The notes: generated by a model from the sequence alone, not told the origin. Numbered from the stretch's first letter, positions 1 through 43,391 are shown. The stretch: 64,000 nucleotides of DNA from Microbotryum violaceum (GCA_001244265.2 LN717261.1:2681591-2745590), one strand, 5' to 3'. Translations and numbers: made by a program.

Positions 1-1719
1 TCGGCTGCGCAGAATACGTTGTTGTAGCCCAGGGGATCGTCGAGGTCGTGTCGGCTGCGGCCTGTGACGTTGAGTGGTGCTTTTTCTTCTTCTTCTTCTT
101 GGACTTGGTCGTGGCTCTATGGCTCGTCGTATTCTGCTTCGAGAAGGATGTGGAAGATCGGACAGACGAAGTCGTCGTTACGGGCCTAGGCGCGACTGCG
201 GACTCCCCATGGAACTGGGGTGTGAATGAGTACTCGCCCTTGCTTTCGTCGATAGTAAAGAACGAGATAGAATCGGAGGGCGATCCAGTCGACGTGTCGA
301 TTCCGAATGCGAACACGACCGTCCCTGAAACGAGTCGGGTTGCTGTGTGCCATGCCCGGCTAGGGGAGGCGAGAGACGAGTGGCGATTGCGGATCAGAGT
401 GGACCAGGTCCATAGAGCGGTATCCGAGTTGAGGTCGCTGGGAGGCGTAAGCAGATGAATATCGTTCAGGACGGCGTGGTCTTCGCGGATTCCACCATGC
501 ACCAGCACGGCTCCGGAAGGGACAGCGATCGCGACATGGCCCATTCGGGGCGAAGGAGGGGTGCCTCTTGCGATCTGCAGTGAGCTTGCGTTGTATCAGC
601 AGGTGTCATGAGTGGTGAACCAGGAGCATGCGGCCTCGAACTGACCCTTTTATTCCATATTTTCAGTCTCGAATCAAAGACAAGAATTTCTGAAAACGGA
701 GCGAGACCTCCGTGAGCAGTCTGGCCGCCCAGAATGGCGACAAAGCGTCCACCCTCAAGCACAGTCGCCGTGTAATCGCTGACGGGTGGTTCAAACGTTT
801 TGGCACTTGTGCCACTCGGCGCTGTCCACGCAAATGACTCGACCTCATTCTGGCCATGGTGATTCTCTGTCGTCGAGTATCGATCGATACCGAGGTAGCC
901 GATCGTCTCGTCGGAGCAAGTATATTGTTCCGCGATGCCGCCAAAGACGTAGATATCATCTGATCGTGCCGTGGCGTTGTAGATCGCCACTGCTTGCGCT
1001 TGACGACGACGAGGCGGCGTATGAGAAACTATCTGCGGTACGGTCCACTCGGCGCCGACCTCGATGGTGTCAGAGAGAGTGAGATTGCTCATGTCCAGCC
1101 GATGGACGGTATGATCGTGCTCGCAGTCCTCTGTGACCCCACCAATGACCCAAACTCTGCCACGATCATCGATTGCAGACGCGACCCACGCAAGTGGATC
1201 AAGGTCTTCCGAAACGCTCGAAACGGCGAGCGGGTTAAGGATTCTGGTCGAGGGGCGACTGTTCCAGACAATCGAGTTGGCAAGGTTGAAAACAAGCACC
1301 TCGTTCGTCACAGTTGTCCCATTCTCGCCTAACTGTCCTCCCACAAAGTAGAGCAAGTTCGTCTCTTGGACGTAGATGGCCGAATGACCGTATCGACCTT
1401 CGACGGCTATCGGATTGGGCGAATGTTCCACAACAGTCGCATTCGAGCTGCTGTTGTGCGCCCCGCCTGGCGGTGTGGCAGGTGCTTTCGGGTGCGGCGA
1501 CAACCGAATGGTACGATTCCCTGCTCGTGCCACCAACAACTGTTGAGGGGCGACGTCGAACGGCTGAGGCCCACGCCGAAGGAGCGAGCCGCGAAGTGCT
1601 TTCAACGGCGAGATGATCGCGGCATTCGTCGAGACGGAGGCCGTGGCCGCGATCAATGTGAGCGCGAACAAGCGATGGCCTCGACGGCGCCGACACGATG
1701 GCGATGTCATGGGAGCCAC
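1..1719 (-). CDS. Secreted/cell-surface Kelch-repeat protein (runs off the window start)
   Basis: N-terminal hydrophobic signal (LFALTLIAATASV) and Kelch motifs (GRYGHSAIY..YFVGG, VWVIGG, IYVFGG, ILGG). A GT-AG intron at 575-645 restores the frame into IARGTPPSPRMGHVAIAVPSGAVLVHGG. Confidence 0.85.
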
Positions 1720-3986
1720 GGTATGTTAGTTTGTGTTGATACACGCGAAGCCACTTGATCTGTGGTTGTGGCGGAGTGCGTTGAGGGCGAGGAGGTGCTG
1801 GGGGCGGGCGCGCTTCGCGCACTCCGAAAGCGATCATCGTCACTCAACACTTCGGTTTCCTGGGCACGCGTACTCGCCGCTTGGCCGCCCCCCTTTATAA
1901 GAAAGAAGCCAAGGCGTGACCCTCGAGCTCCCTCGAGCCTGCGCTAGATTATAGGGGACATGGCCTCCCATCTTCGAGTTGAGATGCACAGCCACCCTAT
2001 GGCGTCGGTACGGTAGAAAGGCATGCCTAAGGTGGCTCGATCGATTCCACTTCGTTCCGCCGCTCCACCCCTTCTGCTCTATATATCACACCCCTCAGAC
2101 GGACGAGAGGGACGGCAGACGTCGAGGCAGCTTTCAAAGCGTCAGGCAAGCCCGGCTCCTCGTACGCAAATACGCAAAAGGAGCTGATCGTGAGAGAACC
2201 GAAAGACTAGTTATTAGTAACAGACTTGCCGTTGACTCCGAAACCTACTGCCAAGACAGCTCGCCGCCGTCGTGTGGAATTTGACTTCTCCTAGCTGGAA
2301 GACTTGCACCTTCACAAGACTTCAACGAGGTCACCCGTCCAATTTTATATTGAGTCACTGCTAGTGGATTGTGATAAAAACACCAATTCCGAACCCAATC
2401 TTGCCTAGCGATGCGGCTTGCACGCTAAGCGCCGAATGGTGTCTGCGCCGGGATTTAAAATGCGGATTTCGCTGCTCCACCCGGGGAGGCTTTGTTGCCT
2501 TAATTCGCGCTGTTCAACGGCGTACTGATGACCGGCCATATCTTGTCCTGCGAGAGGACTGCCTCGTAGCCTGTGCGTTCTTTGGTGCCGACTCATGTGG
2601 GGCCTTGCACGCGCTAGGTCCGAGTCGCCGCTGGTCTCCACGATCTAAGTTCCCGCTCCGGAAAAGTCTGGCTTACAGTGTTACGATGCGCAACTACTTA
2701 TAAAGGTACATAGGTTTCAAAATTATTGGGTGTCAATGCATGCGCTAAAGGTGTAGATGATCGCGAGCGGGCCAACGTTCTGGCAGAAGGGCCACTCGTT
2801 CATCCACTCGAAATAGTCAATGCCGGAGATCCGGGATCCACTTCCCGTGCGCCAGTGCTCGAGTCCCCGGCCGGTCTAAGATGTACTTTGGCACTTGCCC
2901 GTTTCCAACACGTGTTTGTGTCCGTCCAGTAAGCACACTTCATGTCCTTACCTTACACATTCGAGTGATCTCCACCTAGACGGCACGACAAGCCCTCTTC
3001 GTCGGCCTCGAAAGCAGCGGACTCTGTGCCCCGCTGAGTGCCCAATGACATTTTGCAAGCGCATTCGCCAACCGGGACAGCATCACCGAAAATCAATGAA
3101 CGCATTGCCTACACCTCATTAACTGCAAATAAGTTCGGGTGTGCTTACAAATGCTGCTATCAAAGCTGCTTGCCTTGCACGGGATCTCAAGATAGGGGCT
3201 GAATGTGATCTAGCGATTGTGCCGGCACTATGTCCCCGTGCTTACGCGTATGAACGCTTCATCCAGGAGACGTTGTCTCGAGCACGGTGCAATATGAACG
3301 ATTTTTGTCCGAGGTGTTTCGAGCGGGTTGCTACTACTATGAAAAGCTAGACGAGCCCGCACACGGTTCCGCGGCAGGGCTGACATGCCAAAACGCGCGC
3401 TCGCTGTGCATCTGACCACTTCGGCTTCCGACTTTTGGGTTATCACTTCCGATAGCGAGCCAGATTCGCTCCTCATTGGCACTCGTTTTTTTTTAACTCG
3501 TTCATGCGTCAGCGTAGTCAGTCGTGGGGTCTCGCGGTCATGCAACATATCCCGTTCATTGGTTGGCAATCTCGAGTCGATCACCGCGACCATGCGCGCA
3601 ATGGCAAAGCCTTTTGCAGCTTCTGAAAATCAGCAGACACCTTAACATCACCATGAACCATATCATACTCTCAAATTTAACCATGAACAAAACTCACTGA
3701 GGCTACTCTCACTATTCCAGTCGGTATTCGTCTCGGCACTTCTCGAAGGACCATTTTCGATGTGGGGCACACTGGTGGGAAGTGGGACACCACTTACCTA
3801 CTACGTCGGCACCTCCACACCGAAGCTGGCATCCACGTCTCGCTTGGAGGACCTGGCTGCGTGTTAATTGAGCAGGATCAACTTCTGTGACACCTAGCGC
3901 TCTTTGCCGAAGTAAATTTAGCGCGTCCGAGCTCGGCAGCGTCGGAGGTTTTTCTGATTTTCGACCAAGCATGACTCGCAGGTTTC

Positions 3987-7454: not shown

Positions 7455-8770
7455 ATGGCTACGACCACGGTGGATTCCGGGTCTGCCACTCATCGCGGCC
7501 TTATGGGCGACCTGTATGGCAATGTCGACGCCACAAACTGGGGAACGGCCAAGGATCGACTCCAACGGGTGTTGGAGGGCGATGGCCGGTTCAAGCATGT
7601 CACGACCGAACTCAGCGTTGGCCCCGAGCCCGAACAGTGCGAGTTCACCCGTTCGCTGGGTGGCTCCACTGTGGCCGACGTAGTCACGTTCCGTACACAA
7701 CATCGGAATTACCGTCATGACGTCGACGACCTCGATCAAGGCTTGGCGCAGGCCCGCAACATCTTGTTCGTGTGCCTGGGGAGGCCACGTTCGCACGCAT
7801 CGCAGACCAGCCAACGCACGAGCTGTGGGCGGCCCTCGATAAGGATCTCGGCGCCGCATCCCACGACTTCGCGCGGTCGGTGAAACTCGATGCTCTTTTC
7901 CAATACCAACCCTACGTCGATGGAGGCCCTCTCGACCCTTGGTTGTCGCGCTTCAACCGGCTGTTCATCGATCTCAACGCCGCGCATGTTTCCCGTGATA
8001 AGGCCTACCAGCGCGCCAAGATTGACGGGGTCAAGTACACGCAAGCTGAGTTTGATAAGTGGGTTCCGCCGCCTGCGTTGTCGGAAGGCATCCGCATGGA
8101 CCTCTTGAAGGCGAGGATGCCACGGCCTATTGTCACGGTTATCGACGCCCTCGGCCCTATCCCGTCGCTCAGTGATGTGGAGGGCGCGATTCGTCGCGCG
8201 GCGATGTCTCGCTCTTCCGGCACCGACGTCGCCGAAGCCCTCGCGGCGAAGACTCAGGGTCGTCGCAGGCGCCCCGCTCGTTCGTCAGGCAAACCGAAGT
8301 CCAGTTTTCTCTCGGCTTCGAAGGTACGGGGTCTCGTGGACAAGTGGCCGCACGGGGTTGCGCAGAACGGTCGTCTGAGGCTGGGCCCGTCGCAGTGTCG
8401 GAAATGCTACGAGCAGGGTCGTCTTGGCGACGAATGTACCGTCCCCTCGACCTAACTGTCCCATCGTCGGGTTGCCGTCTTGGCCAAGCACAACATCTCC
8501 ATCGGCGCGGCCGACGCGATGGCGCTCGTGGCTGAGTGCGGTCCCGACCCATCGGTTGACGACGACTCTTACGAGAACTATTTTGCCGAGGTCGCCCTTG
8601 ACACCGAAATCTCTGCACTGTACTTGCACGACGGTCCCCGCTGCCTCCTCGACTCGGGGCGACGCGCCACATGACCACTCGTCGGGATCTCTTGGTCGAC
8701 TTCCAGCCTTTCACGACGGAGCGGGTGCGCGTAGCCTGCGCGTTCAAGTCCAGCGCCATGGCGGCCACGA
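7455..8770 (+). pseudogene. Ty1/Copia gag-protease fragment, frameshifted and truncated by a TIR transposon
   Basis: gag-like segment ELWAALDKDL, degenerate zinc knuckle CRKCYEQGRLGDEC, and aspartic protease LLDSG(ATRHMT) across a frameshift. Confidence 0.75.
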
Positions 8771-8771
8771 C

Positions 8772-9007
8772 ACATGTAAGGATATATCCTTACACATGAG
8801 TTCAGGTCAATACACTACCAAATCTGTTCATCTTAATATTGTAACATCAACATATAGCTATTTCTGAATGGTGTCTGCAAGGACTACATGATAGCATGTG
8901 TATTGCAAGACTTGTAGTGACTCAAAATTTCTGTGTCCTTACCGCACCTCCCGTATCCTCACCGCACCCTCGTATCCTTACATGTGTCGACATGTGTAAG
9001 GATACGC
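8772..9007 (+). repeat. Left terminal inverted repeat
   Basis: Reverse complement of 16206-16421 apart from a ~20-bp internal duplication and a few substitutions. Contains the perfect palindrome TGTAAGGATATATCCTTACA at 8775-8794. Confidence 0.9.
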
Positions 9008-10844
9008 CCGCGCGCGCACGTGACATGTGGAACGACAGGAGGCGCACTCAGCTCGAAGCCTTTGTTCACATTTGTTCACCTAATTGTCCCCACACCGCCC
9101 ATCGACGTCAACACCGTGGCACTGTTTCACTTTTGCGAACCAGCCAATTGCGACCTCCAGCTTTGTGCCAGCAGGCACGGACTCAAATCTTTCATCAATG
9201 AGATTGCGGAACCGCCAACTTCCCGACCGTGACGCCGGGCCCTGGACTCGGGCTCGTTCTGGAGCTGGAGACCGGCCCCAATGGCGGACTCCCAAGTCGA
9301 GATTCAAAGTCCCAAGTATCAAACGCCAATCAACGGTAGTAACCAATCGTCGAATCAGGAAAGGAAACGGCCAGTCGGTCCCCGAGTCGGCAAACTCAGC
9401 GCATCCTCAGGACGATTCTGGCGACCTTCAAGCTGAAGCATTGACCTGCACGGTGTCCGCACCGCGGCTATCGAAATCCCCGACTAGAACAGGAGAATTT
9501 CCTATCACCGATCGTACAAGCGACTTGCCTAATCGCATCAAGTCCGCAGAGGACTGCGAGGAGAACTGTGACAATTATGTGGACAATAAGCACAACGATC
9601 ATCAGGACGACCGTGACAATGACTCATCTTGTTCCACTCGGCCCGCCCACGACACTCCCTTCCACCACACTATCAAGCAAGGGAAGTCAACGATGCCTCT
9701 CCTGTGCTCCCAGAACAGCGATCCCGGTTGGCCGTCGCTGCGCAGTCAAAGCAGTGTTGAGAGTGTGAATTCCCCTTCTACCCTCCAAGTCGGCTCGCTT
9801 TCACCAGCCTTAGCTCCGAACCTCTCCCGTCTAAGCGTTTCACAACCCAAGGCTATTCCAAAGGACAGCTCTATTCTTCCCAAGCATCAACATACGACTC
9901 TTAAGCTTGAAGGTACGCCACATGTGTTGTCTAGATGGTAGGCCATCGGTAACGAGGCAAGGCGCGCGCCCGGAGGCTCGATTGATTTTAAGGCAGTGGA
10001 TTAGACTTAGTGTCTGAATGGATTAGAGTCTTGCGCGTGGGCCAATGCCTTCGCAAAGCAGACTCCCTTGTTTATCTTTTCTTTAATCACTCGTTCCTCG
10101 ACTATCGGTTCTGACACTGCGCTGCGTATCATCCTACCGCTGCCACCTCTATAGATGGTGCACTTTTACATCAACATGCGCTCTCCCAGCCTGCTTAACA
10201 AACGGCTTCACTGAAAATTGATATTGTCCGCTTGCCTTTCTTAGTGTTGATGGTCAACTCTGATGTTTCCTTGAAACCTCTCTTGGCGACTAACGTGCCG
10301 ATGATGTTTACGCTGTTGATGTCCATCAACTTCACGGAGACAGGACATTGTTTCGTCTATCTACGAGATATTTTGGAAGAGGTTGCTGAGCTAACTGGCC
10401 TGGCTCTCCAAGGTATGCAAGACAAGATTAGATTGGTTCCCAAGCAATGTTGACAGGCCACTCAGCCAGTCACTAACCGTTTAATTCGGCGACTTATCTG
10501 TGCCTTTGTACAGAGGACTCCTGTTTCGATTACTGGGTGGTCGACGACGCGGCTACGTTATCTACTCACTCGACTCCATGTCTTGCCTCCTGCCGGTACG
10601 ACCAACTCGCAGCATTTACTGCTGCGACCGACTCTTCGGACAAGGTTCTCGGGTTGACCGGCTTCGTACTCGACATCGACTCGTTGCCAGCAGAAGCAAC
10701 CATTACCTTGAGAGTGCGTATAGCTTCATGAGTTGACGGATTCTACGTCGTTGAGCTTTAGTCGCTGAGCTGACTCTTGATTGCAAATGTCACAGGTCTA
10801 CGAGCACATCAAGGCTCGACTCCCATTCGTAAATATCACTACAA

Positions 10845-11116
10845 TGTCAAAAGGGTATTACTGTTTCCTCCCACTTAGAATAGATTAGTATCTAGTTGTT
10901 GATATTAGCCGCGCGCCTCTAGCCTCCCTAGTGCGCGCGCACTTGGCTCTTCTCTCTCTTCTCCAACTATCTTTACTACCATCTTCGGCTCTCGTGCTTA
11001 CGTACCTCGTGCCTCGGGCCTCAGGTTAGTCTTGCAATATACCGGAACTATCTTTACTACCATCTTCGGCTCTCGTGCTTACGTACCTCGTGCCTCGGGC
11101 CTCAGATGTGCTAAAA
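10845..11116 (+). mobile_element. Solo LTR of Copia family A, long 272-bp form
   Basis: Matches the LTRs at 28366 and 33040 plus 81 extra bp. Perfect TSD TACAA at 10840-10844 and 11117-11121. Confidence 0.95.
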
Positions 11117-11183
11117 TACAAGACCTCAAGGCCGGGTAGATGCCCCTGTCTCAAGTGGCGCACCTTCTGCTTCCAAGCACGAC

Positions 11184-13167
11184 TTGCTTGTCAGGGAAAA
11201 GCGTGAAGCATCTCCAAGCGACAGGATCTCCGGCAATCTACGTCCGAACACCGAACCAGATTCAACGGATGACAAGCTCGTCAACAGTGAAGATCATGCG
11301 AATTTACCAACATATAGTGAAGGAAGGACAACGATGACAGACCTGATGCTCGAAGCATACCCACAAGAGATTGTTCTTGATCCTTGGCGGCCCAACGGGA
11401 CTTGGGGCGACGTCCTCATTGTTCGTGTGGATCCAGGCTCGAGCGGTGGCTTGTCACACATGTGGGCTTTCTCGGTGTCATCATCTCGAACCGATTTAAA
11501 AGGGCGATGGAAAGGCCCGCGTTTGGATGCAAACGTCGAGTACAGCAAGTACAGCAAAAGACGTTGCATGGGCGTGTTCGTCTGTTGTGATCAATCATGC
11601 CCTGGCAAGCGTCAACCTCACACATCGCTGTCGACAGCGAGTAGGTCGAAGTTGTTTCAGGAGGAGACTCCACAGCTCGTCACAGGACGCCCCAAGAAGG
11701 CTGTAACCCGCAAGCACCTCGCTCCAAACGTTGAGAGGCCTTCAGACGAGTTACCGCCGTGTCCAATCACAAGCTGTAACGCACCGATGAGGCACATCCT
11801 GTGCTCCGCTACGATTGCCCGAGGGCAGCGTGAGGAATGCCCGGGGGAAATATATATCTGGAATTCAGGGTACCATTTGCATCCTCCGCCTCCGGTGTCG
11901 CGTCCGTCCCCGCAACATCTGGAAGAGCTGCGACAATTACGTAAAGCCGGTCCACAAGCATCGGCCGCCGAGCTGCGCATGGGACAAATGACCGCATTTC
12001 CGCAGGACCCTCGTCATCGGCCGTCCGCCTCTGAGATTTGCCCCGTATTCGACAGCACTCGATCAATCTCGAGATACGCACCAAGAGTGGGCCACAGGAA
12101 GCGTAATGGAGCCCTACCCGACACGTTGATGTCAGCTATTGAAGCTGTTGCCAATGCCGGTTGCCTCGCGTACATCGAAATACCGGGACAGCGCCAAGGG
12201 CAGCCACTTGCCGAGCAAATACACGATCCCGACCCTCGGAAGCAACCCAGGAACGATGGGTCGCGGTCGAAGTCGAAGATCACCTCCAATTCGCTAACCG
12301 ACTCTGAGACGTCATTTGGCATCCAGACTCCTCAGATGAAAGCGAGGCTCTCGGAAACGATTGACGACCGGCTAGTCGAAGGCAATTTGGGATGGCCTAC
12401 CAACGCTCACAACACCTACTTTCGCGACAATCGGGTGTTGCTCGCCACGGTCTGCTATTCGCCAAGCGCTCGTCGCTGGTTTCCGATCCTGTACTCCGTC
12501 GGCAACCATGAGCGATCGGGCTTCTACCGCCGACATTTTGCGCACCTATTCCAGATTCTTGACGATGCCAACTATAGCGTGGAGGACATCGTCAACGGAG
12601 TTACATTTGTTGTCGATTATTCAAACGCGCAGATTTCGGGTCTTCGCCAAGCCATTTCGGATTGGTACGTGGCACGCAAGACCGCAGATGTGGGACGCTT
12701 GAACGTCACACCCAATCAGGTGTCACAGTGGACTGCAGAGGCTATTCAGATTGGCGAGAAGGCGGCAAGCGGGTGCGCCTCTCACTTCATTGAGCAGGTC
12801 AGGAGGTTCGGGGTCCGACATCTCAGTACGCAAACGGAGCGCGAACGATTTGCAATGCTGGTCAACACCATGCGCAACGCGAAGTCCCATGCATCGATTG
12901 AGTCCATGGCAAAGCGCACAATCGATGAGTTTCCTGTGTCAGAGAATTGGATCAAATGGTGGACATGACCAGCGATTCGAAATGTGGTATTCAAGGAACT
13001 CAATGGATCCGCAGAAAGATGCGTGGCTACCACAACAAATGCGGTGGTATCTTCCCACTGGCTCCCAATCCATTCATGTGGTGGTGAACGCTTTGGACCG
13101 GTGGAAGGGGTGATGCGACTTATCGACTTCGCGAAAATGATAGACCGAATTGAAAGTCATGCGACCG
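11184..13167 (+). pseudogene. MULE-type DDE transposase with N-terminal GCM/WRKY-like zinc finger, degenerate
   Basis: Zinc finger: CMGVFVCC..C..PCPITSC..C..GYHLHPPP. Transposase motifs: TNAH (expected D, 12402), VVDYS (12615), CASH (CxxH) and TTNAVVSSH (expected E, 13047). In-frame TGA at 12966. Confidence 0.65.
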
Positions 13168-14303
13168 GTAAGGCCCTGGCATAGCGTTACCACCAACCCA
13201 TTATCCTCATCTAAAACCATTCTCGCCTTTGCTTTGAAAAACAGACGGCTATGTCAGGAGTTCCACTTATCACGAGCAAGGCAACGTCCGCGCTCATATC
13301 AAAGAGATCAAGTCACGCAATCGGTACCTTCATCCTACGTCAGTGACGCCAACATGCCTGAGCCTTCGATCTCGTTCGCTGCACCTGCTCGTCTAGCTGG
13401 CATCGGGTTTTCTGAGTCACCACAAGGACCTTCAGACCTGTCAAAGGGTCCTGCAACACCACCACTGAGCGAATCAACCAAATTACCTCCTTCCACGTCA
13501 AATCGTTCCCGGCAGCAACCAAAGAACCGGTCAAGGCAGGGCAATGGGCCCACTGCGCAGTCGATGGCCTCCAAAAAGGGCTCAACACGTGTTGATTACC
13601 CCCACAAGCGCAAGATTCCTGACCCGCCGTCTGACGAGCATAGTTCGAGCGAATCATCAGACGACGTTGGATTGACGCCCTCAATTCATTGCAATTCATC
13701 CGAGGCCATTCCCCCGACGGATCGCTCCATCAAGCTCCATCAAACGTCCAATTCCAAATCGAAAGGTAGTCCTCCCCGCTCAGGTTTCAGCGGCCCATTG
13801 CGACGAGTCCCCGTTGTCCCTATGGCTGTGAGGGCGCTCAATGAAGAAACGGAGTTGTCCCAAATACGTACGCCTCCGCCCCAAACTGTTGACTGAGTGC
13901 AGAGGCGCTGAGGCCTGGCTGATGGAAATCCTGCTCTGATTTATCCTCCGTCTCACAGTTCTTGCGCAGCACAATGCACGAAATTTGGAAGCCCCAGTGG
14001 TCGAAAATACCGGATACCTCGAAAACGATTGGCCTTCCTCTTGTCGGAACCTGAATCACAATCGGAGGCAAAGAGGACATGTACGTCCGTATTGGACATT
14101 CCCCTGTCCATGGTTGCATCCAAGTCGGGGTTGGCGCCATCGAAATCTGCAAGAAAGGTAGAAATCGCCACGTCAAAACCTGCATGGGCGTCGACGTCAC
14201 TCGAGCGCATCAGTGACAAGCTCCCAGAGGACTCTAAATCTGCACCAAGGGTAAAATTCGCTCCGCCCAAGACACCGGCATCGACATCGCTCGTAGCACG
14301 ATT

Positions 14304-15891
14304 GTGCAGCTCCACGCAGACTTCTGGCTGCGATCAGGTGAAGACGGGCCAGTCGTCATTATCCAAGGCCCGTGGAGCGATAATTCTTGCTGGATTGACT
14401 CAACGCTTATCGCATTGCTCTCGGTCGCCAACGGATTGGAACCATGGCTGCAGTGTCTGGATATCCTTAACACCCATACGGCCTACGTGATTCCTCCACT
14501 TGGCGATGAGATGGTGTTGAGGTTCCGCCCTCGATATTTGGCACTCGAGCTATGGGATGCGATTCGCGAATACACAGCATTGGCTCGAAAGTTTGATATG
14601 AAACCGGCGGCGAACGCCATTGAAGCATACACACAATTACGAGAACGGATGATTTCCACTGTGGTTGGGATGTCGAAAGAGCGCGAAAGCCATTTTACAA
14701 CTCCATTTAAGCGGGGGAGTTATAGTAGCCCAGTAGTCAGTCAATCACTTAGCAAACCCCGCCCTCCCAAGACGATTAAAACTGGACGCTAATTATCACT
14801 TTTTTCGGCAGACCTGGCTCGAGACACTTCACTCGTTCACCGTCAATCATCCGGTTCTGCCAAGCGCTGTCACGTTGAATGATCCCGACCGAACTCTCGT
14901 CGAATTACATCTTCAACGAGCCGGGTATTGCACTGCATGCAACTGCATTCAGATTGAGGTGTTCCCAAGACGACAGTTTGTGGTTGACTGGCCCCTTCTC
15001 ATCTCAAGTCTCCACCTGCCTTCGCATTCGCTGGAAACGTTGTCGGACGTCCTCGCCTCAATCGTTGGGCAACCGTTGAAATTGTACACAGAGGCAAAGA
15101 ACTCAGGCCGTCGGCATCACAAGCGCAATTGCCCCGGAGGCTCTTACGTGCAATTCGTTTCGATCACCTCGCTCCCCCGTGTGATTGTGATCAACATCAA
15201 CGATATTTACACGGAACATTCACTGGCCCCAGCTGAGCTACGCTTCGGTGTTTCGGACCAAATGCCAGAGATGGTTTGGCGCCTTCGGTCAGGAGTGTAC
15301 AACATCAACAATTCACATTTCGTTACGAACGCGACGGTTGGATACGGGCAAGAGGCCGCATGCTATCATTTCGACGCAATCAAAGGCTCTCTCGTTTTAG
15401 AACATCTGAGGCCCGAGGCACGAGGTACGGAAGTATGAGAGCCGAAGATGGTAGTAAAGATAGTTGGAGAAGAGAGAGAAGAGCTAAGGGCGCGCGCACT
15501 TGGAAGGCTAGAGGCGCGCGGCTAATATCAACAACTAGATACTAAACTATTCTAAGTGGGATGAAAAGTAATACCATTTTGACATCTCGCTAGGCCGATA
15601 GGGGACAGGAACGCTGGCGGATTAGTTTCCGTTCTTTTCTACGAGCTAGAAGAGGAATCATTGAACTTCTTGCAAGCCTTCAACCTAATGCTAACGCGGC
15701 AGTGGCACGAAATGTGGAGTCTATACCATGAGCCCTCCGATCCTACCGATATCGGCATTAAAGTGTCAAGTCTACCACCCAAAGGGACTCTTGAAGAAGG
15801 ACAAGGTGTCTGGAAGATGGAAGATGCGTCGGCTTTTTTTCATGAAAGCAAGATAGTGAGTGTCGGGAACGCCAAAAAAGCAGATCAATAG
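14304..15891 (+). pseudogene. USP/C19-like cysteine peptidase domain carried by the transposon, interrupted by a solo LTR
   Basis: Cys box DNSCWIDSTLIALL, intron near 14736-14810, CTAC, LPRVIVININ, His box GVYNINNSHFVT..CYHFDA. Removing the LTR and one TSD restores the frame through VSVLFYEL to the stop at 15891. Confidence 0.7.
15395..15584 (-). mobile_element. Solo LTR of Copia family A, short form, more diverged
   Basis: Reverse complement of LTR A. Perfect TSD TCTCG at 15390-15394 and 15585-15589. Confidence 0.95.
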
Positions 15892-16205
15892 AGCTGACGA
15901 TGCTCTCCTCTTACAATGTTTTCCAGCGGTGCAGTGCTTCTGGAGGAAATCACAGTAGTGGGGAACATTCATGTTGATGGCAAGTTTGACTCACAAAGTT
16001 GTGCCCCAGTGGTCCAGTGAAGTTTTGGCCTTGTCAATGACTAATGTAGTGTACAGTAGGGGCTATGATAGCGGTCAGCAATAGTATGTATAACTAAACT
16101 TAGTGCAAAAATGGGCATGGCGGTACTTTGACAACCACTGGTGTGCGGAAAGAGTCAATTATTCACCAGCAGCAGCCAGTGCATGCCAGTGTTCTTTGCG
16201 TGCAA

Positions 16206-16421
16206 GCGTATCCTTACACATGTCGACACATGTAACGATACGAGGGTGCGGTAAGGACACAGAAATTTTGAATCACTACAAGTCTTGCAATACACATGCT
16301 ATCATGTAGTCCTTGCAGACACCATTCAGAAATAGTTATATGTTGATGTTACAATATTAAGATGAACAGATTTGGTAGTGTATTGACCTTAACTCATGTG
16401 TAAGGATATATCCTTACATGT
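16206..16421 (-). repeat. Right terminal inverted repeat
   Basis: Inverted copy of 8772-9007. Confidence 0.9.
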
Positions 16422-16422
16422 A

Positions 16423-16844
16423 TACAAGCCGCAGCGCCGCGCCACTGCCGCGCCGTAGTGCAAATGATCTGCCTTCTCCTCCGATCCTCCACGTCGGAAG
16501 CGGGCAAGTGTGCGAGCCAGAGCCTGAAGCTCGGGCAGCAAGTGTTGTTTGGTGGACGTCCAAGCTACTGATGGGTCGTCGGGCGTCTGGAGGAGGGCTT
16601 CATTGTAGAGGGTCTGGACAGTGGAGGTGAGGTACTCGCAGGTCGCGTCGCCCTTGATCACGTGCAAACCCAGCTTGAATTTGCCCGGACCGATGTCAAT
16701 TGCGCCCGGCACTTGGAACCGCGCCACCACCATCGAGTGCGTCGATTTGAGGACAGGATCCCAGATTTTGTGGTCATGGAAGAGGTCGACCCAATCAGGC
16801 GAGACATAGATGCGGTCAAGGCGGCGGCACGTGCCGGGCGCTGA
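16423..16844 (-). pseudogene. LINE ORF2 fragment (end of the AP endonuclease domain)
   Basis: RRLDRIYVSPDW...KSTHSMVVARF...GPGKFKL matches the RIDR..SDH..GPG.W segment of non-LTR endonucleases. Confidence 0.75.
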
Positions 16845-18168
<1,324 letters not shown>

Positions 18169-28050: not shown

Positions 28051-28365
28051 GTTATTTTTGCCATTTGGGGGGGACGTAGTCGCCTGAAAGATAATTTGAT
28101 GGTTGACGCAACATCAGCAGTGGGGCGGCGACTAGGTATTGATTAAGGAGCTTTGGCTTTGCAAGAACAAGCTCAGAGTGATGTCAGTTGGCTGCAACTG
28201 GTGAGAATGGGGATAGCTACCTTCGTCTCAGCATACCTTTGCAAGAACAACCGGGACTCTGTGATGCCGCGGAGGCTAGCAGAGGCTGCGTTTCGAGCAG
28301 GAGGGTTCGGCAGAAGGACTGCTGAGAGATGCAGGGGTTGCAAGTCAGTGAAGTGGTCCAACAAG

Positions 28366-33230
<4,865 letters not shown>

Positions 33231-34839
33231 ACAAGGACTACCAACTAACTGCCCGTACAGGACTGGCAAGATCACTGTAGGAATCAAAGTGGTAAGTTCA
33301 CCGTGCAACAAGCTTGGGTGACCAATAACACTTACCCCAAGTTACTCCTGGACAGAGCCATGTTGAGGATTTAGACGAGCTAGGTGTGGCTAGTCAAGAA
33401 ATGTCCTGCAAGATGAAATGCTTGGTCAGTGACTTTGTCAACTGTGAGGTGATCTTGGGAGTGAGGAACGCACCTGTATCAACGGTGGTAAACGCAGCGG
33501 CAGAGGCTGGTGGAGACGTCGACGGTGCAGTGAAGGCCCTGAAGGGAACGTGCAGCGCGAGTGACCGCCTGTGAGCCCGCGTGTGTATGAGGCACAGCTA
33601 TAGCTCAGCAGGGGAGAGAGGAGAAGGGAGGTCCGAGCGCGCGAGCTTGATCGGCGCGTCAAATCCTTGCAGCAAAGGCCGAAAAGAACATGCGCCTACG
33701 GACAGAGTGGGACTTAGACAAATTTTGGGAGCAAGGCGCGAGTCGGCGCGACGCGCGCGGCGACTCAACTGGCGCAAACCGGGCCTTTGCGAGGACGTGG
33801 GCGCAAGCGCCGTCACGGCCAAGTGACTCGCATTAGGCCACGGCCGCGTGTTTACCAAGTCCACGCGCCGTCGCGAGCCTCCTTTTCCCTCCTCCCACTC
33901 ACTGCCACCGCTCGCGATCCCCACCGCTTCTTCCCTTTTGCCTCCACCATCACCTTTCAATCTGCCCCTGGTTATTTCCGAGCGAGTCGACCGTATGGCA
34001 CAGTCATTGAAAGGTATGGCTGAAGCGTTACAAGCCGCCGGCAAAGACGCCGCCAACGACCGGCGGGACCGATGCTCGGTCAACCAAACACAAAGCAGAC
34101 TGAGGCACACGTCACATCTTGGCAACGCTGACCATCTTCGGAGGGGTTCTTGGAACTTCGCTTTGGCCACATCTTTAGGGTGATCTTGAAGAAGTTATAC
34201 TGTTGTCCAGAGCAGGAAGTGGCTGGTAAGTATTTGCATTACTGCAGAGAGATTTCCAGTTCGGCCGGAAGTCAGACGACCTGTCAAACTAACTGTTGAA
34301 CAATCTCGTTGCCGTGTTTGCAGCTTGCACCAAGAGCCAAAAGGTGGCCTCCCTCAATGCGGCGCAGCCGGACAACCAACCCCTGGCTTTTGGTCTAGTA
34401 TCTTATGCTTAAGCTGCGGTGAGTCGAGAGATTTTCCGCGGATATCGGTTTTATCCCTGTGACATTCAACCTAACATTTGTCTACTGGTCCCATCAATAG
34501 GCGCGTGAGTCTCTTGAAAAGGTGATGCCCCCGATTGCGGAATTCTCAGGTGAGTCTCAATCACCAGGTGTTGCGACATACACGAGTTGTTTCCGGGTGG
34601 GGGAGGGGGGCGGTTATGCTTCCGTTTTCAGGTGGCGAAGCAGTGGCCAAAGACTCGCTCGAGGCAGGCCTGGTACTTAGGCACAGGGCACAGTTGGTGC
34701 CGAATGATACATAAGAAGAGGACTCAGAATAGATTGTTTGGCTGGCAGTAGCCTAGTACTTAGCACTGTGATTATGAGTGGGAATGCAAGCATGTACCAG
34801 TACTACCAGGCATCAATTGCTCAAGCGCGCTTATACACA

Positions 34840-38739: not shown

Positions 38740-41700
38740 TGTAGAAATCGAACAGCGATGTGCTGAACGAGTTGGCGGCAGTGGCAAGCCAATGAGTTCG
38801 TAATCAAGTGAGGTTGCAATAAAGGAGTTCTTCACACACCTGAACAAGTTGGCGGCAGTGGCAAGCCAATGAGTTTGTAATCAAGTGGAGAAGAAGAAGG
38901 AAAGACGCGATTGGACCGCGCGGCTAATACAAATAGAGACGCGCGCTAGGCAGATTTAAGGCAAGAGTAATCTACCTCAACACCCCCACTTGCTCTTGGC
39001 CTGAAATGCGGCGCAGACCGATGGCGTCACAATGACGCTGGAAGACTACTCGCGGCAGCGGCTTGGTGAAAATGTTGGCAACCATATCGTGGGTTGGGAT
39101 GTAGGTGACCGAGATCTCTCCATTCCGAACATGCTCCCGAACGAAATGCTCCAACATGCGCAAATGTTTGGTGCGAGCGTGGAAGACCGGATTCTGGGTG
39201 AGCGCTATAGCTCCCTGGTTATCCCCGAGAAGACGTAAAGGGGACGACGTATCGAGACCGAGTTCGGTGAGGAGCGAGCGAAGGAAGACAGCCTCCTTGG
39301 CTGCATGCGAGAGGCCCAGGTACTCCGCTTCCGTGGATGAACAAGCTACGCGAGGTTGGAGACGAGATGACCATGAGATGGCCCCACCCGCCAGTTTGAA
39401 CAAGTAACCCATAGTGGACCTCGACGTCTGTATGTCCGATCCCCAGTCCGAGTCAGAGTACCCCTCGTACCCCAGCAGAGGCGAACTGGTGCGCGTGTAG
39501 TGTATGCCAAGATCGAGCGATCCTTTGATGTAACGAAGGACGCGCTTGGCCGCCTCGAGGTGAGTGTCGCCAGCCTTGCCGACGAAACGTGACAGATATC
39601 CGACGGAGTGGGCTAGATCAGGGCGAGTGGCAACAACAGCGTACATGAGTGAGCCGATCATGGAACGGTAGATGGCATTGTCGGCGGAGTCTGTATCGGG
39701 TTCCGGCGAAAGCTGTAGGTTGGCTTCCATGGGTGACTTGCAGGGGTTGCAGTCGGACATGTTGAAGCGATCCAAGACGTCAAGGAGGTATTGACGCTGG
39801 AGAAGGGAGATCCCGCCATCGTCGTGTCGTATGACCTGAACCCCGAGTACCCATTTGGCCGGGCCAAGGCATTTGACTCCGTAGAGGGTGTCGAGTTGGT
39901 CAAGGACTCGATCGATTTCCCCGAGATCCGGCCCAAAGAAGAGTAGATCGTCGACGTAGAGTGCAATGTAGTGATCACCCCAGCGTCCTCATGACGATAG
40001 ATGCATTCATCGCAGGCGAGGCGACGATAGCCAAGACTCGCGAGCATGGCGTTGATCGTGTCGTTCCACACTCGACTTGCCTGCTTGAGACCGTAGATCG
40101 ATCGATGAAGGCGGAGGCATTTGCCTTCGTAGCCTTCGATGCCAGTTGGAACCCGCATGTAGATCTCCTCCTCCAGCACACCGTGAAGATAGGCCTTGTC
40201 AACGTCGGCTTGAATGATGTGGTGGCCCTTCGAGGCCGAGTGCGCGATGAGCGTGCGGATGGAGGTGTACTTAGCCGTGGGTGAGAAGGTGTTGTTGAAG
40301 CTGTTTGGGCCTTGTGCGCAGCCCTGTGCAACAATGCGGTTCTTCAGTGAAACCATCTTCCCGGCTTTGTCGCGTTTGGTTCGAAAGACGTGACGACTTG
40401 GTAAGATCGTAGCTCCTTTGGGCACGGAGGACAGTCCGACGACGCTGAACACCTTGAGATCGTCTTTCATCGAGCGGAATTCCTCAATGGCTCCCGCTTT
40501 CCATGCCGCGGCGTGAGGATGGCGCATGGCCTCATTCCACGTGGTGGGATCACTGCTCGGGAGCGAGAACGGGTCCTCTGGTTCCGAGAGCGGTCGATTC
40601 GCCGTCGAGGTGTCAATGCCCGCCGCGTCGAGATCAGCAACAAGTTCGGTTACCTCCTTGCCTAGAGAGAATGCGAAGGCAGAAGGGGTCGAGCGCAAAG
40701 ATGCTAGGGCGCCGTAACGAGCTGGGGGTTGCGCGGGCGCGAACCCACGGGTGGCTGCCACGCGGGCCCCGGTGCGTCGAAACGTAAAGCAGCCGGAAGC
40801 TCCGCTTGGTCGGGGGTGCCTGATTGGCATGCTGGTCAGGGAGTACAACGACTTTGTCATCGTCATCGTCGTCGTCGTCGTCGTCGCCTGCGACGGGCGC
40901 GTGAGCTGCTGTGATGCCCTCCCGCCTGGCTGGGAACTCGTCCTCGAAGAATGTGACGCTGCGCGATTTGAAAACTTGTCTGGTAGCGGGGTCAAACAGT
41001 CGGTATCCCTTGGATTCGAGATTGTAGCCGACGAATACGAGTGGAATGCCCCGCGGATCGAGTTTGCTGCGCGCTTCGGTGGTAGCTGCCTTCCACGCTC
41101 TGCAGCCGAATACGCGGAGATGGCCGGCTGACGGCTTCGATCCGTGCCAACGCGTGTGTGGTGTGACGCCTGAATTTGCCGAGTGTGGTGAGCGATTTTT
41201 GACGTAGACATATGTTGCCAATGCCTCGGCCCACAAAGCGTGAGATAGACCCGACTGGTGGAGCATTGATCGGACACCCTCGGTGATCGAGCAATTTGCG
41301 CGTTCGGCAACCCCGTTTTGCTGAGGGGCATCGGGAATCGAAAGCTGACGAGTGATGCCTTGTTCTTCCAGGAAGCTCGAGAACTCGTTTGACAAGAATT
41401 CACCACCGTTGTCGGAGCGGACTGCCAGGAGTTTTCTCGACGAGGAGCGCTCGACCTTTGCAAGCCACGACTTGAAGGCCGCAAAGGTATCGGACTTGTG
41501 CGACATCGGAATTGCCCAGAGATATCGGGTGTAATCACCGACAATGACGAGGGCGTATTTTGCGCCGCCTAACGACACGGCGCCGTCGAACGCAAGAAGG
41601 TCCATGTGGACTCGATCAAGAGGCTGGGCTGAACGATTCGACGCGACGGTGGGGAAAGGGTGATGTGTGATCTTCCCAGCCTGGCATGTATCACATTTCA

Positions 41701-43391
41701 AGTCTGCGTTCAATGCTATCTCCATGTTGACTCCCAGCACAGCCTCAGTTGAGATCAGCTGTCGTAGAGCGCGTGGGTGAAGGTGAGCGAAACGTCCGTG
41801 CATGATGGAGACGGGGACGGCCGCGAACGCACGTGGGGACGCACCCGGTTGCTCGATGAGAGTAGTGACGTCGACTAGGGAAGCATGCATGTGGTACAAG
41901 CCGTTCGTGATCTCCCCGGTGTGGCAAATCGACCCGTCGACTGAGACCATTGCTTTGCCTCGGGAAAGGTTGATGTCGTAGCCCGCGGCGTTGGCGCGAC
42001 TGGCGGAGAAGAGGCTGACCGGCGCGCTGGGGACGAACAACGCGTGGTGGAGTTGACCGATGCTGCCGTTGAAGGAGCGAACGACAGCGGAACCGACGCC
42101 TTCGATCGAATTGACCGCCTCGCCCGTGATGCCCTCGAGCGGAGCAGGCTTGCACTTGCGGAAGTTGGTGAAACAAGCGCGATCGTTGACGATGTGATGC
42201 GTCGCGCCGCTGTCGAGGATGAGGGAAGGTTTGGCCAATGTGGACATCGCTGCGGTGAGGTATCCGCGGACCGGGCCGTCTACCAACGTCGAGATGTCGG
42301 GAGCAGCGGCGAGTGATGCGGACGGCGCGGAGGAGGCCTTGGACTTCTTGTCCTTGACGGGGCATTTTCGATTCCAGTGAGGACCTCCACAGTGTCGGCA
42401 CGGAGCTGACGGAGTCGATGAAGATCTGTCCGTCGCGGTCAAGCTAGCTACCATCGCCACGGGCTTGTGTGCCGGCGTGGATTCAGCTTGAGTCTGAAGC
42501 GTTTGAAGCGCTTCAATCGGATCAGGGAGCTTGTCGAGGTCTTGACGGAGCGCTTGAGTATAGTACTCCTTGTAGAGGTCCTTGCCAAAGTGGATCAAGC
42601 GTATCGAGATGACCTGGTCAAAGGTAAGGTTGTATCCCGAAAGAGTGTTAAACAGCTCAATGGTGTTGGCTTGGTACTTCTCGAACGCGTCGACACCGGA
42701 GGGAGGCGGACCCGCATCGAGCAGGGCTTGGAGCTTGATGAAGATGTCGGTGACTGTGCCTGCTGCGACCGCTTTCTTGATCATCTTCAAGACGTCGGTG
42801 GGAGTGTGATCGAATCCATCTTTGATCTGCTTCTTGATGTTGAGGGAGACCGAGCGCCTCAAGAGCGCGATCGCTTGGAAGTTGGCGTGCTCCAGGTCGG
42901 TGCGCGCGTTGGGTTTCTGAATGGGCGTCGCAAGCGTGCAGTTCCAATAGTCGCCCCGAGAGCTCCACGGACGTCGTTGATCCATTGCGACCAGCCTCCC
43001 GCGTTGCGCAGGTGGCATGACGGGTCGATATCGCGGGGTTTGACATAGACGATAGAGGTTGTTCCCCCTGATACCACAGTGTCCGTATCACCGGGCATGA
43101 TGACTTGATGACTCGAGTTGGCTGGGCCGCTACGTTGGGCTCGTAACCTGTAGAAATCGAACAGCGATGTGCTGAACGAGTTGGCGGCAGTGGCAAGCCA
43201 ATGAGTTCGTAATCAAGTGAGGTTGCAATAAAGGAGTTCTTCACACACCTGAACGAGTTGGCGGCAGTGGCAAGCCAATGAGTTCGTAATCAAGTGGAGA
43301 AGAAGAAGGAAAGACGCGATTGGACCGCGCGGCTAATACAAATAGAGACGCGCGCTAGGCAGATTTAAGGCAAGAGTAATCTACCTCAACA
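38740..43391 (-). mobile_element. Full-length Ty1/Copia retrotransposon, family B, frameshifted gag-pol
   Basis: 243-bp TG..CA LTRs at 43149-43391 and 38740-38982. TSD CATTC, PBS-like GGTTACGAGCCC, PPT GAGCAAGTGGGGG. Motifs CRHCGGPHWNRKC, LDSGATHH, SDNGGE, YVDD and YSDSDW. Confidence 0.97.

What the first reader, a model, noticed from the sequence alone, without database searches (positions are those of the whole stretch)
8772..16421. Long-TIR DNA transposon coupling a GCM-finger MULE-like transposase to a USP-like deubiquitinase domain
Seen: ~220-bp TIRs enclose a spliced + strand coding region with a GCM/WRKY-like finger and D-D-CxxH-E transposase motifs, where the first D and the E appear mutated. 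A low-complexity linker leads to a papain-fold domain with Cys (14388, NSCWIDS), His (15316, NSHFV), Asp (15373, HFDA) and a terminal LFY motif, recovered after removing the solo LTR. Established: these motifs match the USP/C19 Cys and His boxes. Some transposons carry Ulp1- or OTU-type proteases, whereas a USP-like cargo on a fungal Mutator-like element is unfamiliar to me. Inference: the protease may protect the transposase from ubiquitin/SUMO-dependent turnover or counter chromatin silencing.
Basis: partly seen in the sequence, partly recalled or inferred. Interest (0 to 1): 0.82.

Follow-up and report, generated by a model that had tools for sequence, protein, structure and literature searches.

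The report
Dead fungal Mutator transposon with protease-like tail
This is a broken copy of a Mutator-type jumping gene of the anther-smut fungus Microbotryum whose transposase carries an extra tail domain that looks like a ubiquitin-removing protease, a likeness that is plausible and unusual but could not be proven with the tools at hand.

Summary
Window 8772-16421 is bounded by 244-bp terminal inverted repeats.

The window copy is dead. It has two Copia solo-LTR insertions, each with its own 5-bp duplication, one premature stop, at least three 1-bp deletions, and D->N and E->V changes at catalytic positions.

Relatives occur only in Microbotryum. Four gene models of 1412-1623 aa join the zinc finger, an intact D..D..CxxH..E core and the C-terminal Cys box in one protein. 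A second family about 50% identical keeps the Cys, His and Asp motifs.

Mutator-like (MULE) assignment: supported by motifs, long TIRs and language-model neighbours, but not by Pfam.

USP-like assignment: not demonstrated.
- Pfam, PDB, HMMER and hhalign against 43 verified USP domains are all non-significant (P 0.07-0.15; 4 of 147 shuffles reach the observed score).
- Both AlphaFold runs failed (pLDDT 30-32).
- In its favour are eight collinear motif boxes with USP-like spacing, and the fact that all named Atlas neighbours are UCH.

Spliced contigs confirm three introns. The intron that must be removed to join transposase and tail is retained in the contigs shown.

Verdict: a new variant of a known kind (protease-carrying MULE), of moderate interest.

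The parts
8772..9015 (+). Left terminal inverted repeat (244 bp). It holds the terminal 20-nt palindrome 8775-8794 and the subterminal 36-nt palindrome 8971-9006. Both contain the ATCCTTACA core, a likely transposase binding site.
   Evidence: sequence read
16198..16421 (-). Right terminal inverted repeat, with the terminal palindrome 16399-16418 and the subterminal palindrome 16207-16242.
   Evidence: sequence read
10250..10412 (+). Exon 1 (MVNSDVSL...). Intron 1 is about 10413-10513 (GT..AG).
   Evidence: tblastn of P0001/P0002/P0016/P0018; splice sites read; no spliced contig is listed for it
10514..10713 (+). Exon 2. Intron 2 is about 10714-10795 (GTGCGT..CAG).
10796..13167 (+). Exon 3, the finger plus transposase core. 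Finger motifs lie at 11541-11588 and 11760-11882. D1 is N at 12402-12404, D2 is 12615-12617, CxxH is 12774-12785, the W-rich NWIKWW stretch is 12945-12962, a premature TGA is at 12966-12968, and E is V at 13047-13049.
   Evidence: G at 12402 in all 4 runs
10845..11116 (+). Solo LTR A of a Copia family, inserted in exon 3. TSD TACAA lies at 10840-10844 and 11117-11121. It carries an internal 81-bp-spaced duplication (10965-11024 and 11046-11105).
   Evidence: skipped (277 nt, 5 shared letters) in contigs of X1 and X8; absent from P0002/P0008/P0009
13168..13244 (+). Intron 3 (77 nt, GT..AG).
   Evidence: spliced joints in X2 and X3 contigs; retained in X1 and X8
13245..14735 (+). Linker of about 330 aa rich in S, P and K, followed by the start of the C-terminal domain with the Cys box. 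The window has 1-bp deletions near 13322, after 13991 and near 14293. A putative intron 4 (13868-13958 or 13890-13969) is needed to avoid the stop at 13897-13899.
   Evidence: C inserted after 13991 in all 4 runs; intron 4 retained in X2 record 13 and X3 record 18
14376..14402 (+). Cys box SDNSCWIDS, with the candidate catalytic Cys codon at 14388-14390.
   Evidence: present in 6 of 6 gene models that cover the region
14736..14811 (+). Intron 5 (76 nt, GT..AG).
   Evidence: spliced joints in X2 and X3
14812..15855 (+). Body of the C-terminal domain. CxxC is at 14923-14946, HHKRNC at 15115-15141, SLPRVIVININ at 15169-15201, His at 15316-15318, Asp at 15373-15375, and LFYELEE within 15622-15654.
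15395..15584 (-). Solo LTR B, of the same Copia family and in inverse orientation to LTR A. TSD TCTCG lies at 15390-15394 and 15585-15589.
   Evidence: skipped (195 nt, 5 shared letters) in contigs of all 4 runs
15856..15926 (+). Last intron (71 nt, GTGAGT..CAG).
   Evidence: spliced joint in X3. The spliced C-terminus resembles that of the second family (P0011/P0014).
15927..15977 (+). Last exon (RCSASGGNHSSGEHSC, then the stop codon).

Best explanation
Window 8772-16421 is a degenerate copy of an autonomous Mutator-like (MULE) DNA transposon family that is confined, as far as searches reach, to Microbotryum anther-smut fungi.

Intact copies encode one protein of about 1500-1600 aa. It has a short conserved N-terminal region and a Cys/His finger of WRKY-GCM1 type that presumably reads the palindromic ATCCTTACA modules in the 244-bp TIRs. 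Next comes a DDE core with the (C/D)xxH signature, which would cut and paste as shown for Muta1. A disordered linker of about 330 aa follows, and then a C-terminal domain of about 400 aa.

The C-terminal domain carries a Cys...His...Asp set and six further boxes in the order and spacing of USP-type (clan CA) cysteine peptidases. The most likely role is an element-encoded deubiquitinase or Ubl-peptidase acting on the transposase or on chromatin at the element. Self-processing of the polyprotein is the second option.

Shown: the TIRs, the gene structure, the defects of this copy, co-occurrence of both parts in other copies, and conservation of the triad in a family about 50% identical. Inferred: the MULE fold, the peptidase fold, and any activity.
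For: TIRs and palindromes.

Copies elsewhere:
- Only Microbotryum proteins are found: 7 of 7 hits, 6 of 6, 6 of 6, and 5 of 5 hits in 1.84 billion representatives.
- P0008, P0009, P0016 and P0018 (1412-1623 aa) hold the finger, WPTDAHN, VVDYS, GC(A/S)FHF, NAVESSH and the Cys box in one gene model.

MULE:
- D-71-D-144-E with CxxH between and W upstream of E, the signature described in PMC5499845 (passages read).
- A terminal palindrome plus subterminal repeats, as in Muta1 (same paper).
- Atlas neighbours carry PF10551 MULE at 0.94 with 174 shared features, and 9 of the 10 best named hits share that family or clan.
- The secondary structure of the poor model runs beta-beta-beta-alpha-beta around D1 and D2.

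C-terminal domain:
- The Cys box is present in 6 of 6 models that cover it. His326 and Asp345 are invariant in 6 of 6 rows of alignment A1, including the second family at 41-49% identity.
- The hhalign best path is collinear over query 24-413 and template 13-368. It places Cys on Cys, CxxC on CxxC, SLPRVIVIN on lPxvLIIxLKRF, SHF on GHY, YHFD on WYxFN and LFYE on LFYx.
- Atlas: every named neighbour is PF00443 UCH, at 0.93 with 162 shared features.
- There is a weak CoV_peptidase (PLpro) hit exactly on the Cys box, E 0.2.

Transcription and splicing: GT..AG joints at three predicted introns appear in X2 and X3 but not in X1 and X8.
Against: No curated profile recognises either domain. Pfam finds nothing at E<=1 on the window ORFs and on P0008/P0009, and nothing at E<=10 on the six C-domain sequences.

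PDB sequence and profile searches find nothing relevant.

Comparison of the C-terminal domain with 43 ORFs that are all PF00443 (43 of 43):
- hhalign score 21.5, P 0.066, probability 0.8%. The session's own hhalign tool gives score 18.8, P 0.15.
- 4 of 147 column shuffles reach the observed score.
- hmmsearch --max gives -2.1 bits, and 112 of 1500 shuffled decoys do as well or better.
- hmmalign aligns nothing.

Both AlphaFold2 models failed, with mean pLDDT 30.6 and 32.0.

The Atlas score lies in a range that 4-10 in 100 shuffled proteins also reach. The shared-feature count of 162 is below the 170 typical of true family members.

CxxH lies 53 aa after D2, outside the 15-45 aa quoted in PMC5499845.

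No target-site duplication is visible: the flanks read ..GGCCACGAC | ATACAAGCC...

The putative intron that must be removed to join the transposase and the tail is retained in both listed contigs that cross it.
Confidence: 0.65

Rival explanations
1. The C-terminal domain is a papain-like (clan CA) cysteine peptidase but not of the USP type. It would be a new or C1-like family whose job is to cut the polyprotein in cis, releasing the transposase from the linker and tail. Babu et al. proposed this for OTU-fused MULE transposases.
For: The Cys is followed by Trp, and a Gln lies 8 residues upstream. The His is followed by ...VGYG. These details recall, from my memory and not from any call, the papain C1 active-site motifs as much as the USP boxes. 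No USP profile reaches significance. The OTU-MULE precedent and the self-processing idea are in PMC1702500 (passages read).
Against: The Cys-to-His distance is 284 aa, with a CxxC...xxC pair and an LPxV(I/L)xIN box between them. The hhalign path to USPs is collinear through all of these. All named Atlas neighbours are UCH and none is C1.
Confidence: 0.15
2. The C-terminal domain is not a peptidase at all. It would be a lineage-specific accessory domain, for instance a zinc-binding or protein-interaction module, and its Cys, His and Asp resemble USP boxes by chance.
For: All statistical tests against real USPs are non-significant. No fold could be obtained. The domain has no relatives outside two Microbotryum families.
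Against: Eight boxes match in the right order and with matching spacing. His326 and Asp345 are invariant, and the Cys box is kept in a family at about 50% identity, while the linker does not align.
Confidence: 0.17
3. The tail is a passively captured fragment of a host USP gene (Pack-MULE-style transduplication) with no function for the element.
For: MULEs often capture host sequences. ULP1 capture is recurrent in plants (PMC2528002, passages read).
Against: phmmer over 1.84 billion representatives finds no host gene, only element copies. The domain is fused in frame behind a long open linker. It is kept in two families that have diverged to about 50% identity with the triad intact. Its introns are spliced in the contigs of X2 and X3.
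Confidence: 0.03

Closest known systems
ULP1 (C48)-carrying MULEs of plants (Arabidopsis KAONASHI/KI-MULE; melon, rice and grapevine MULEs)
   Same: A Mutator-like element that carries a cysteine peptidase of the ubiquitin-like-modifier system downstream of the transposase. Such peptidases were acquired repeatedly (PMC2528002, passages read).
   Different: In those elements the peptidase is Ulp1, clan CE, with motif order His-Asp-Cys (order recalled). It is recognisable by sequence and is often a separate ORF or in the opposite orientation. Here the order is Cys-His-Asp, no profile recognises the domain, it is fused in frame to the transposase in the gene models, and the host is a basidiomycete.
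Medicago MULE transposases with a C-terminal OTU papain-like protease (Babu et al. 2006)
   Same: The architecture is WRKY-GCM1 finger, then MULE core, then a C-terminal papain-like peptidase in one protein (PMC1702500, passages read).
   Different: The peptidase is an OTU superfamily domain and the host is a plant. The Microbotryum tail gives no OTU hit in Pfam.
Helitron/Helentron-encoded VTD and OTU deubiquitinases (Erven et al. 2022)
   Same: A transposon-encoded papain-fold domain, shown biochemically to be a deubiquitinase and proposed to protect transposition proteins from degradation (PMC9741609, passages read).
   Different: Those are rolling-circle elements. VTD has an Asp-x-His active site, unlike the His...(19 aa)...Asp found here.
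Muta1 / MuDR / Hop-type autonomous MULEs
   Same: Long TIRs with a terminal palindrome and subterminal repeats, an N-terminal zinc finger, and a DDE core with (C/D)xxH and a W before E (PMC5499845, passages read).
   Different: Those transposases have about 500-900 aa and no peptidase tail. Their 8-10-bp TSD could not be shown here, and Pfam MULE does not match this protein.
USP / peptidase C19 (PF00443), e.g. the compact USPs of giant viruses used here as reference
   Same: Order and spacing of the Cys box, a QxDxxEF-like box, CxxC, xxC, LPxVLxI, the His box, the (N/D) box and LFY.
   Different: There is no significant profile similarity. The GHY of the His box is SHF or EHF here.

Membership tests
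Mutator-like elements (MULE superfamily) | Long terminal inverted repeats | tested here: met
   244 bp at 88.9%, with a 188-nt core at 96%
Mutator-like elements (MULE superfamily) | 8-10-bp target-site duplication | tested here: not met
   The flanks GGCCACGAC and ATACAAGCC do not match. Both flanks are other repeats that break at 8762 and 16429 in other contigs, so this copy may be rearranged. No other genomic copy was available, because no genome is held.
Mutator-like elements (MULE superfamily) | DDE triad with a (C/D)xxH motif after the second D and a W before the E | tested here: met
   In intact relatives the positions are D279, D350, C403xxH406, NWIKWW and E494 in P0004 numbering. CxxH lies 53 aa after D2, against the 15-45 aa quoted in PMC5499845. 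The window copy has N and V at D1 and E.
Mutator-like elements (MULE superfamily) | Match to Pfam MULE (PF10551) or Transposase_mut (PF00872) | tested here: not met
   No hit at E<=1 on the window ORF, P0008 or P0009. Atlas neighbours with PF10551 at 0.94 and 174 shared features are a lead only.
Mutator-like elements (MULE superfamily) | RNase H-like catalytic fold | tested here: inconclusive
   The AlphaFold2 model has mean pLDDT 32.0. Only its secondary-structure order around D1 and D2 fits.
WRKY-GCM1 zinc fingers | Four-stranded Zn-binding fold with Cys pair ... His/Cys pair ligands, N-terminal to a MULE core | tested here: inconclusive
   C-x4-C ... HxxxHxH and a preceding CxGVFVCC...C pattern lie at 11541-11882. 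There is no Pfam or PDB hit, and the model is unusable. The likeness to the GCM motif is recalled from memory, not computed.
USP / peptidase C19 (PF00443 UCH) | Match to the family profile | tested here: not met
   Pfam gives none at E<=10 on 6 of 6 sequences. A HMMER profile of 43 verified USPs scores -2.1 bits, and 112 of 1500 decoys do as well.
USP / peptidase C19 (PF00443 UCH) | Profile-profile similarity to verified members | tested here: inconclusive
   hhalign P 0.066 and 0.15, and 4 of 147 shuffles reach the score. The best path is collinear and puts the catalytic residues in register.
USP / peptidase C19 (PF00443 UCH) | Cys box ... His box ... Asp/Asn in that order, with His-Asp about 16-19 aa apart and Zn-ribbon Cys pairs between Cys and His | tested here: met
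   C42, CxxC at 197-200, C262, H326 and D345 in the 451-aa stretch. They are conserved in the second family. The typical USP spacings are partly recalled from memory.
USP / peptidase C19 (PF00443 UCH) | Thumb-palm-fingers fold | tested here: inconclusive
   The AlphaFold2 model has mean pLDDT 30.6, and Foldseek on it is meaningless.
USP / peptidase C19 (PF00443 UCH) | Isopeptidase activity on ubiquitin or a Ubl | not testable with these tools
   This needs recombinant protein from an intact copy.
Ulp1 / peptidase C48 and OTU | Family profile match; His-Asp-Cys order (C48) | tested here: not met
   There are no Pfam hits. The motif order here is Cys-His-Asp.

The most novel reading that the evidence does not exclude
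Microbotryum harbours MULE families whose transposase is joined, through a splice that may be regulated, to a very divergent USP-class deubiquitinase. This would be the first USP-type DUB on a cut-and-paste DNA transposon, and a DUB family invisible to current profiles. Retention of the 13868-13969 intron would give a transposase-only product, and its removal a transposase-DUB fusion, so the element could switch between two protein forms.
Probability: 0.4. Interest if true: 0.65.

Novelty: new variant of a known kind. Interest (0 to 1): 0.45.

Why it matters
Transposons have repeatedly picked up peptidases of the ubiquitin and SUMO systems: Ulp1 on plant MULEs and CACTAs, OTU on Medicago MULEs and Helitrons, and VTD on Helentrons. 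Why they do so is still open.

A fourth, USP-like class on a fungal MULE would strengthen the case that removing ubiquitin-type marks is a general need of DNA transposons. It would also add a DUB lineage that no profile detects. And it would offer a tractable pair of families, about 50% identical with the triad kept, for biochemical testing.

If the tail turns out not to be a peptidase, the finding shrinks to the annotation of an uncharacterised Microbotryum MULE family.

Tried and rejected
- No whole genome is held for the window, so genome-wide copies, empty sites and TSDs could not be examined.
- Pfam on 8 window ORFs, on 4 relatives and on 6 C-domain sequences gave no relevant family.
- PDB sequence and profile searches gave nothing relevant.
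- The search for homologous proteins on the DDE core alone found only Microbotryum.
- A metagenome scan with alignment A1 matched 121 pattern stretches, none confirmed by tblastn.
- tblastn of P0005 against plasmids gave 2 chance-level hits, E 5-8.
- AlphaFold2 on the C-terminal domain (6-row alignment) and on finger plus core (6 rows) gave pLDDT 30.6 and 32.0. The second model was not searched for the same reason.
- hmmsearch and hmmalign with a profile of 43 giant-virus USPs gave no signal.
- The genome search for PF00872 through a viral locus handle failed because the record is not held.
- A Pfam call with a mis-framed window reference failed and was not repeated.
- Rfam and tRNA scans of 8000-17500 found nothing above chance.
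- The flanks have no other copy in the window.
- An inversion between the two inverted solo LTRs was considered and rejected, because each LTR has its own matching 5-bp TSD (and the sequence) and relatives read straight through both sites.
- Sequencing runs: no RNA holder is listed. X1-X7 are only guessed to be RNA.
- Literature searches for a USP or deubiquitinase on a Mutator-like or other cut-and-paste element found none. PMC6446971 has no occurrence of protease, peptidase, Ulp1, ubiquitin, C48 or OTU. Supplements were not consulted.

Full report
**1. What is in the sequence**

The element runs from 8772 to 16421.
- blastn pairs 8772-9015 with 16421-16198 (244 nt, 88.9%). The repeat finder reports a 188-nt core at 96% and a further 63-nt arm at 90%.
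- Each tip carries the same 20-nt palindrome (8775-8794, 16399-16418). There are 2 matches in 64 kb against 0.01 expected.
- Each TIR also has a 36-nt subterminal palindrome built on the same ATCCTTACA core (D3). This layout is like the terminal palindrome plus subterminal repeats described for Muta1 (PMC5499845, passages read).
- No target-site duplication is visible. The flanks read GGCCACGAC on the left and ATACAAGCC on the right.
- Contigs of other genomes that share the flanks diverge at 8762 and 16429. Contigs that share the element's left end have mutually different flanks, with agreement 0.57-0.63.
- So the element is inserted at several sites in other genomes, and this copy lies between two unrelated repeats. 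It may be rearranged.

**2. Organism and copies**

All protein relatives are from Microbotryum silenes-dioicae or M. saponariae, at 83-97% identity. That is 7 of 7 hits and 6 of 6.

Cluster look-up and motif scans identify four gene models of 1412-1623 aa: P0008, P0009, P0016 and P0018. Each contains the finger, WPTDAHN, VVDYS, GC(A/S)FHF, NAVESSH and the Cys box. P0016 aligns to the window from 10238 to 15888 in the expected exon order.

The sources name them only by locus tag.

There are also internal-deletion derivatives. P0012 joins the N-terminal exons directly to the tail. Joints 9470->14052 and 13215->13933 appear in X2/X3.

A second family (P0011, P0014, P0015) is 41-49% identical to family 1 in alignment A1 (43-53% by tblastn to the window). 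The available models of this family lack the transposase.

**3. State of the window copy**

The window copy is dead.
- Two solo LTRs of a Copia family interrupt the coding region. A full copy of that Copia lies at 28361-33235, with TSD ACAAG and an ORF carrying gag_pre-integrs, rve and RVT_2.
  - LTR A is 10845-11116 with TSD TACAA.
  - LTR B is 15395-15584, in inverse orientation, with TSD TCTCG.
- Contigs of X1 and X8 skip LTR A. Contigs of all four laid runs skip LTR B, each with 5 shared letters.
- Because each LTR has its own TSD, I reject an inversion between them.
- Further defects:
  - TGA at 12966-12968, where relatives have Arg.
  - 1-bp deletions near 13322 and 14293, seen as frame changes.
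  - A 1-bp deletion after 13991, where all four runs have an extra C.
  - Asp->Asn at 12402-12404, where all four runs read G at 12402. This is a CGA->CAA change of the RIP-like type described for Microbotryum (PMC10502011, passage read).
  - Glu->Val at 13047-13049.

**4. Gene structure and transcripts**

Gene models and splice-site reading give these exons: 10250-10412, 10514-10713, 10796-13167, 13245-about 13867, about 13959-14735, 14812-15855 and 15927-15977.

The runs listed as 'RNA?' are only guessed to be RNA. The contigs of X2 and X3 carry GT..AG joints at 13168-13244 and 14736-14811, and X3 alone also at 15856-15926. X1 and X8 run straight through these places. That fits spliced transcripts of the family in organism B.

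The last intron moves the stop codon to 15975-15977. It gives a C-terminus like that of the second family.

One caveat matters. An intron must be removed to avoid the stop at 13897-13899 and to join the transposase and the tail. It is 13868-13958 in some gene models and 13890-13969 in P0004. It is retained in both listed contigs that cross it, X2 record 13 and X3 record 18, although record 18 has intron 3 removed. Only 15 of 20 joints were shown. So 'one spliced ORF' is supported by gene models and by a long open linker frame, but not yet by transcripts.

**5. The transposase**

Pfam does not recognise it. PDB sequences do not either. A search on the core alone finds no relative outside Microbotryum.

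What supports a Mutator-like enzyme:
- The long TIRs.
[quoted passage not shown] This is the signature stated in PMC5499845.
- The Cys/His finger upstream. Such fingers are typical of MULE transposases (PMC1702500).
- Atlas neighbours, of which 9 of the 10 best named clusters share the MULE family or clan. The first scores 0.94 with 174 shared features, a count the tool associates with true family members.

AlphaFold2 failed, with mean pLDDT 32.0. I put MULE at about 0.9. The 'GCM-like' flavour of the finger rests on my recollection of the GCM motif and on no computation.

**6. The C-terminal domain**

phmmer over 1.84 billion representatives returns 5 proteins, all from the two Microbotryum families. 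Within them:
- The Cys box (SCW[IL]DS) is present in 6 of 6 models that cover it.
- His326 and Asp345 are invariant in 6 of 6 rows of A1.

To test the USP reading I fetched USP genes of giant viruses with a Cys-box DNA pattern, giving 120 loci. From these I extracted 95 complete ORFs of 240-480 aa that also carry GHY, and reduced them to 43 representatives below 55% identity. All of them match PF00443: 43 of 43, best E 4e-65.

Against this set:
- hhalign gives score 21.5, P 0.066, and 18.8, P 0.15 with the session's own tool.
- The reversed query scores 14.1, and 4 of 147 column shuffles reach 21.5.
- HMMER sees nothing.

So there is no statistically significant similarity.

Yet the best path is collinear over nearly the whole domain, query 24-413 on template 13-368. 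It pairs Cys with Cys, AANAIEAY with QNDAxEFL, CxxC with CxxC, xxC with CxxC, SLPRVIVININ with lPxvLIIxLKRF, SHF with GHY, YHFD with WYxFN and LFYE with LFYx, at matching distances.

All named Atlas neighbours are UCH, at 0.93 with 162 shared features. The tool warns that shuffled proteins reach such scores 4-10 times in 100. The agreement with a family predicted beforehand from motifs is what gives it weight.

AlphaFold2 failed, with pLDDT 30.6.

My estimates are: papain-like cysteine peptidase about 0.75, USP-type specifically about 0.6.

**7. Mechanism**

Shown: the architecture, and the conservation of the triad.

Inferred:
- The finger binds the palindromic modules.
- The DDE core excises through flank hairpins and inserts with 8-10-bp TSDs, as for Muta1.
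- The tail, held on a flexible linker, removes ubiquitin or a Ubl from the transposase or from chromatin at the element, or cleaves the polyprotein.
- Retention or removal of the linker intron could give transposase-only and fusion forms.

**8. Comparison and novelty**

Peptidase-carrying transposons are known:
- Ulp1 on plant MULEs and CACTAs (PMC2528002).
- OTU fused to Medicago MULE transposases (PMC1702500).
- VTD and OTU on Helitrons, with VTD activity shown biochemically (PMC9741609).

My searches found no USP-type domain on a Mutator-like or other cut-and-paste element. A survey of MULE diversity does not mention peptidases at all (PMC6446971).

In Microbotryum, TIR elements are reported only as a class making up about 0.4% of the genome (PMC10502011).

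I therefore rate this a new variant of a known kind, with interest 0.45, limited by the unproven fold.

Noticed in passing
window 28361-33235: A full-length Copia retrotransposon with 191-bp LTRs, TSD ACAAG and an open 1237-aa ORF (gag_pre-integrs, Pol_BBD, rve, SH3_retrovirus, RVT_2). It is the source family of the two solo LTRs inside the MULE.
   Followed up: partly
window 10965-11105: Solo LTR A carries an internal duplication: two identical 60-nt copies 81 nt apart. The other three LTR copies in the window do not have it.
   Followed up: no
P0018 residues 1347-1384 (relative in M. silenes-dioicae): Another copy of the MULE has an independent insertion of the same Copia LTR at a different place in the tail. 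This Copia family has therefore hit the MULE family at least three times.
   Followed up: no
window 9925-10174: A stretch of about 250 bp upstream of the start codon has much higher contig depth in X2/X3 (150-470) than its neighbours (0.6-34). It has loose ends on both sides (9924 and 10174), so it occurs elsewhere in other contexts. There is no Rfam or tRNA match. Its nature is unknown.
   Followed up: partly
window 13868-13969: The putative linker intron is retained in the two listed spliced contigs that cross it. This may be alternative splicing that decides between a transposase-only product and a transposase-tail fusion.
   Followed up: partly
window 9470->14052 and 13215->13933 (joints in X2/X3); P0012; P0011: These are internal-deletion derivatives that lose the transposase but keep the N-terminal exons and the tail. 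The second family is so far seen only in transposase-less gene models.
   Followed up: partly
window 38972-43087 (- strand): A second, degenerate Copia element (rve, SH3_retrovirus, RVT_2 in overlapping frames).
   Followed up: no
window 17064-17921 (- strand): A gag-like ORF (DUF4939 E 1.8e-7, Retrotrans_gag E 1.3e-4) just right of the MULE. The ORF at 16389-16898 (-) next to the right TIR has no Pfam match.
   Followed up: no
window 466-1725 (- strand): A Kelch-repeat protein ORF (419 aa), apparently an ordinary host gene at the edge of this transposon-rich stretch.
   Followed up: no
window 8500-16700, table 1: Differences between the window copy and other copies are mostly transitions. There is an excess where the window has T or A and the others have C or G (for X1: T>C 35 and A>G 28, against C>T 18 and G>A 21). 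This fits RIP-like decay of this copy.
   Followed up: no
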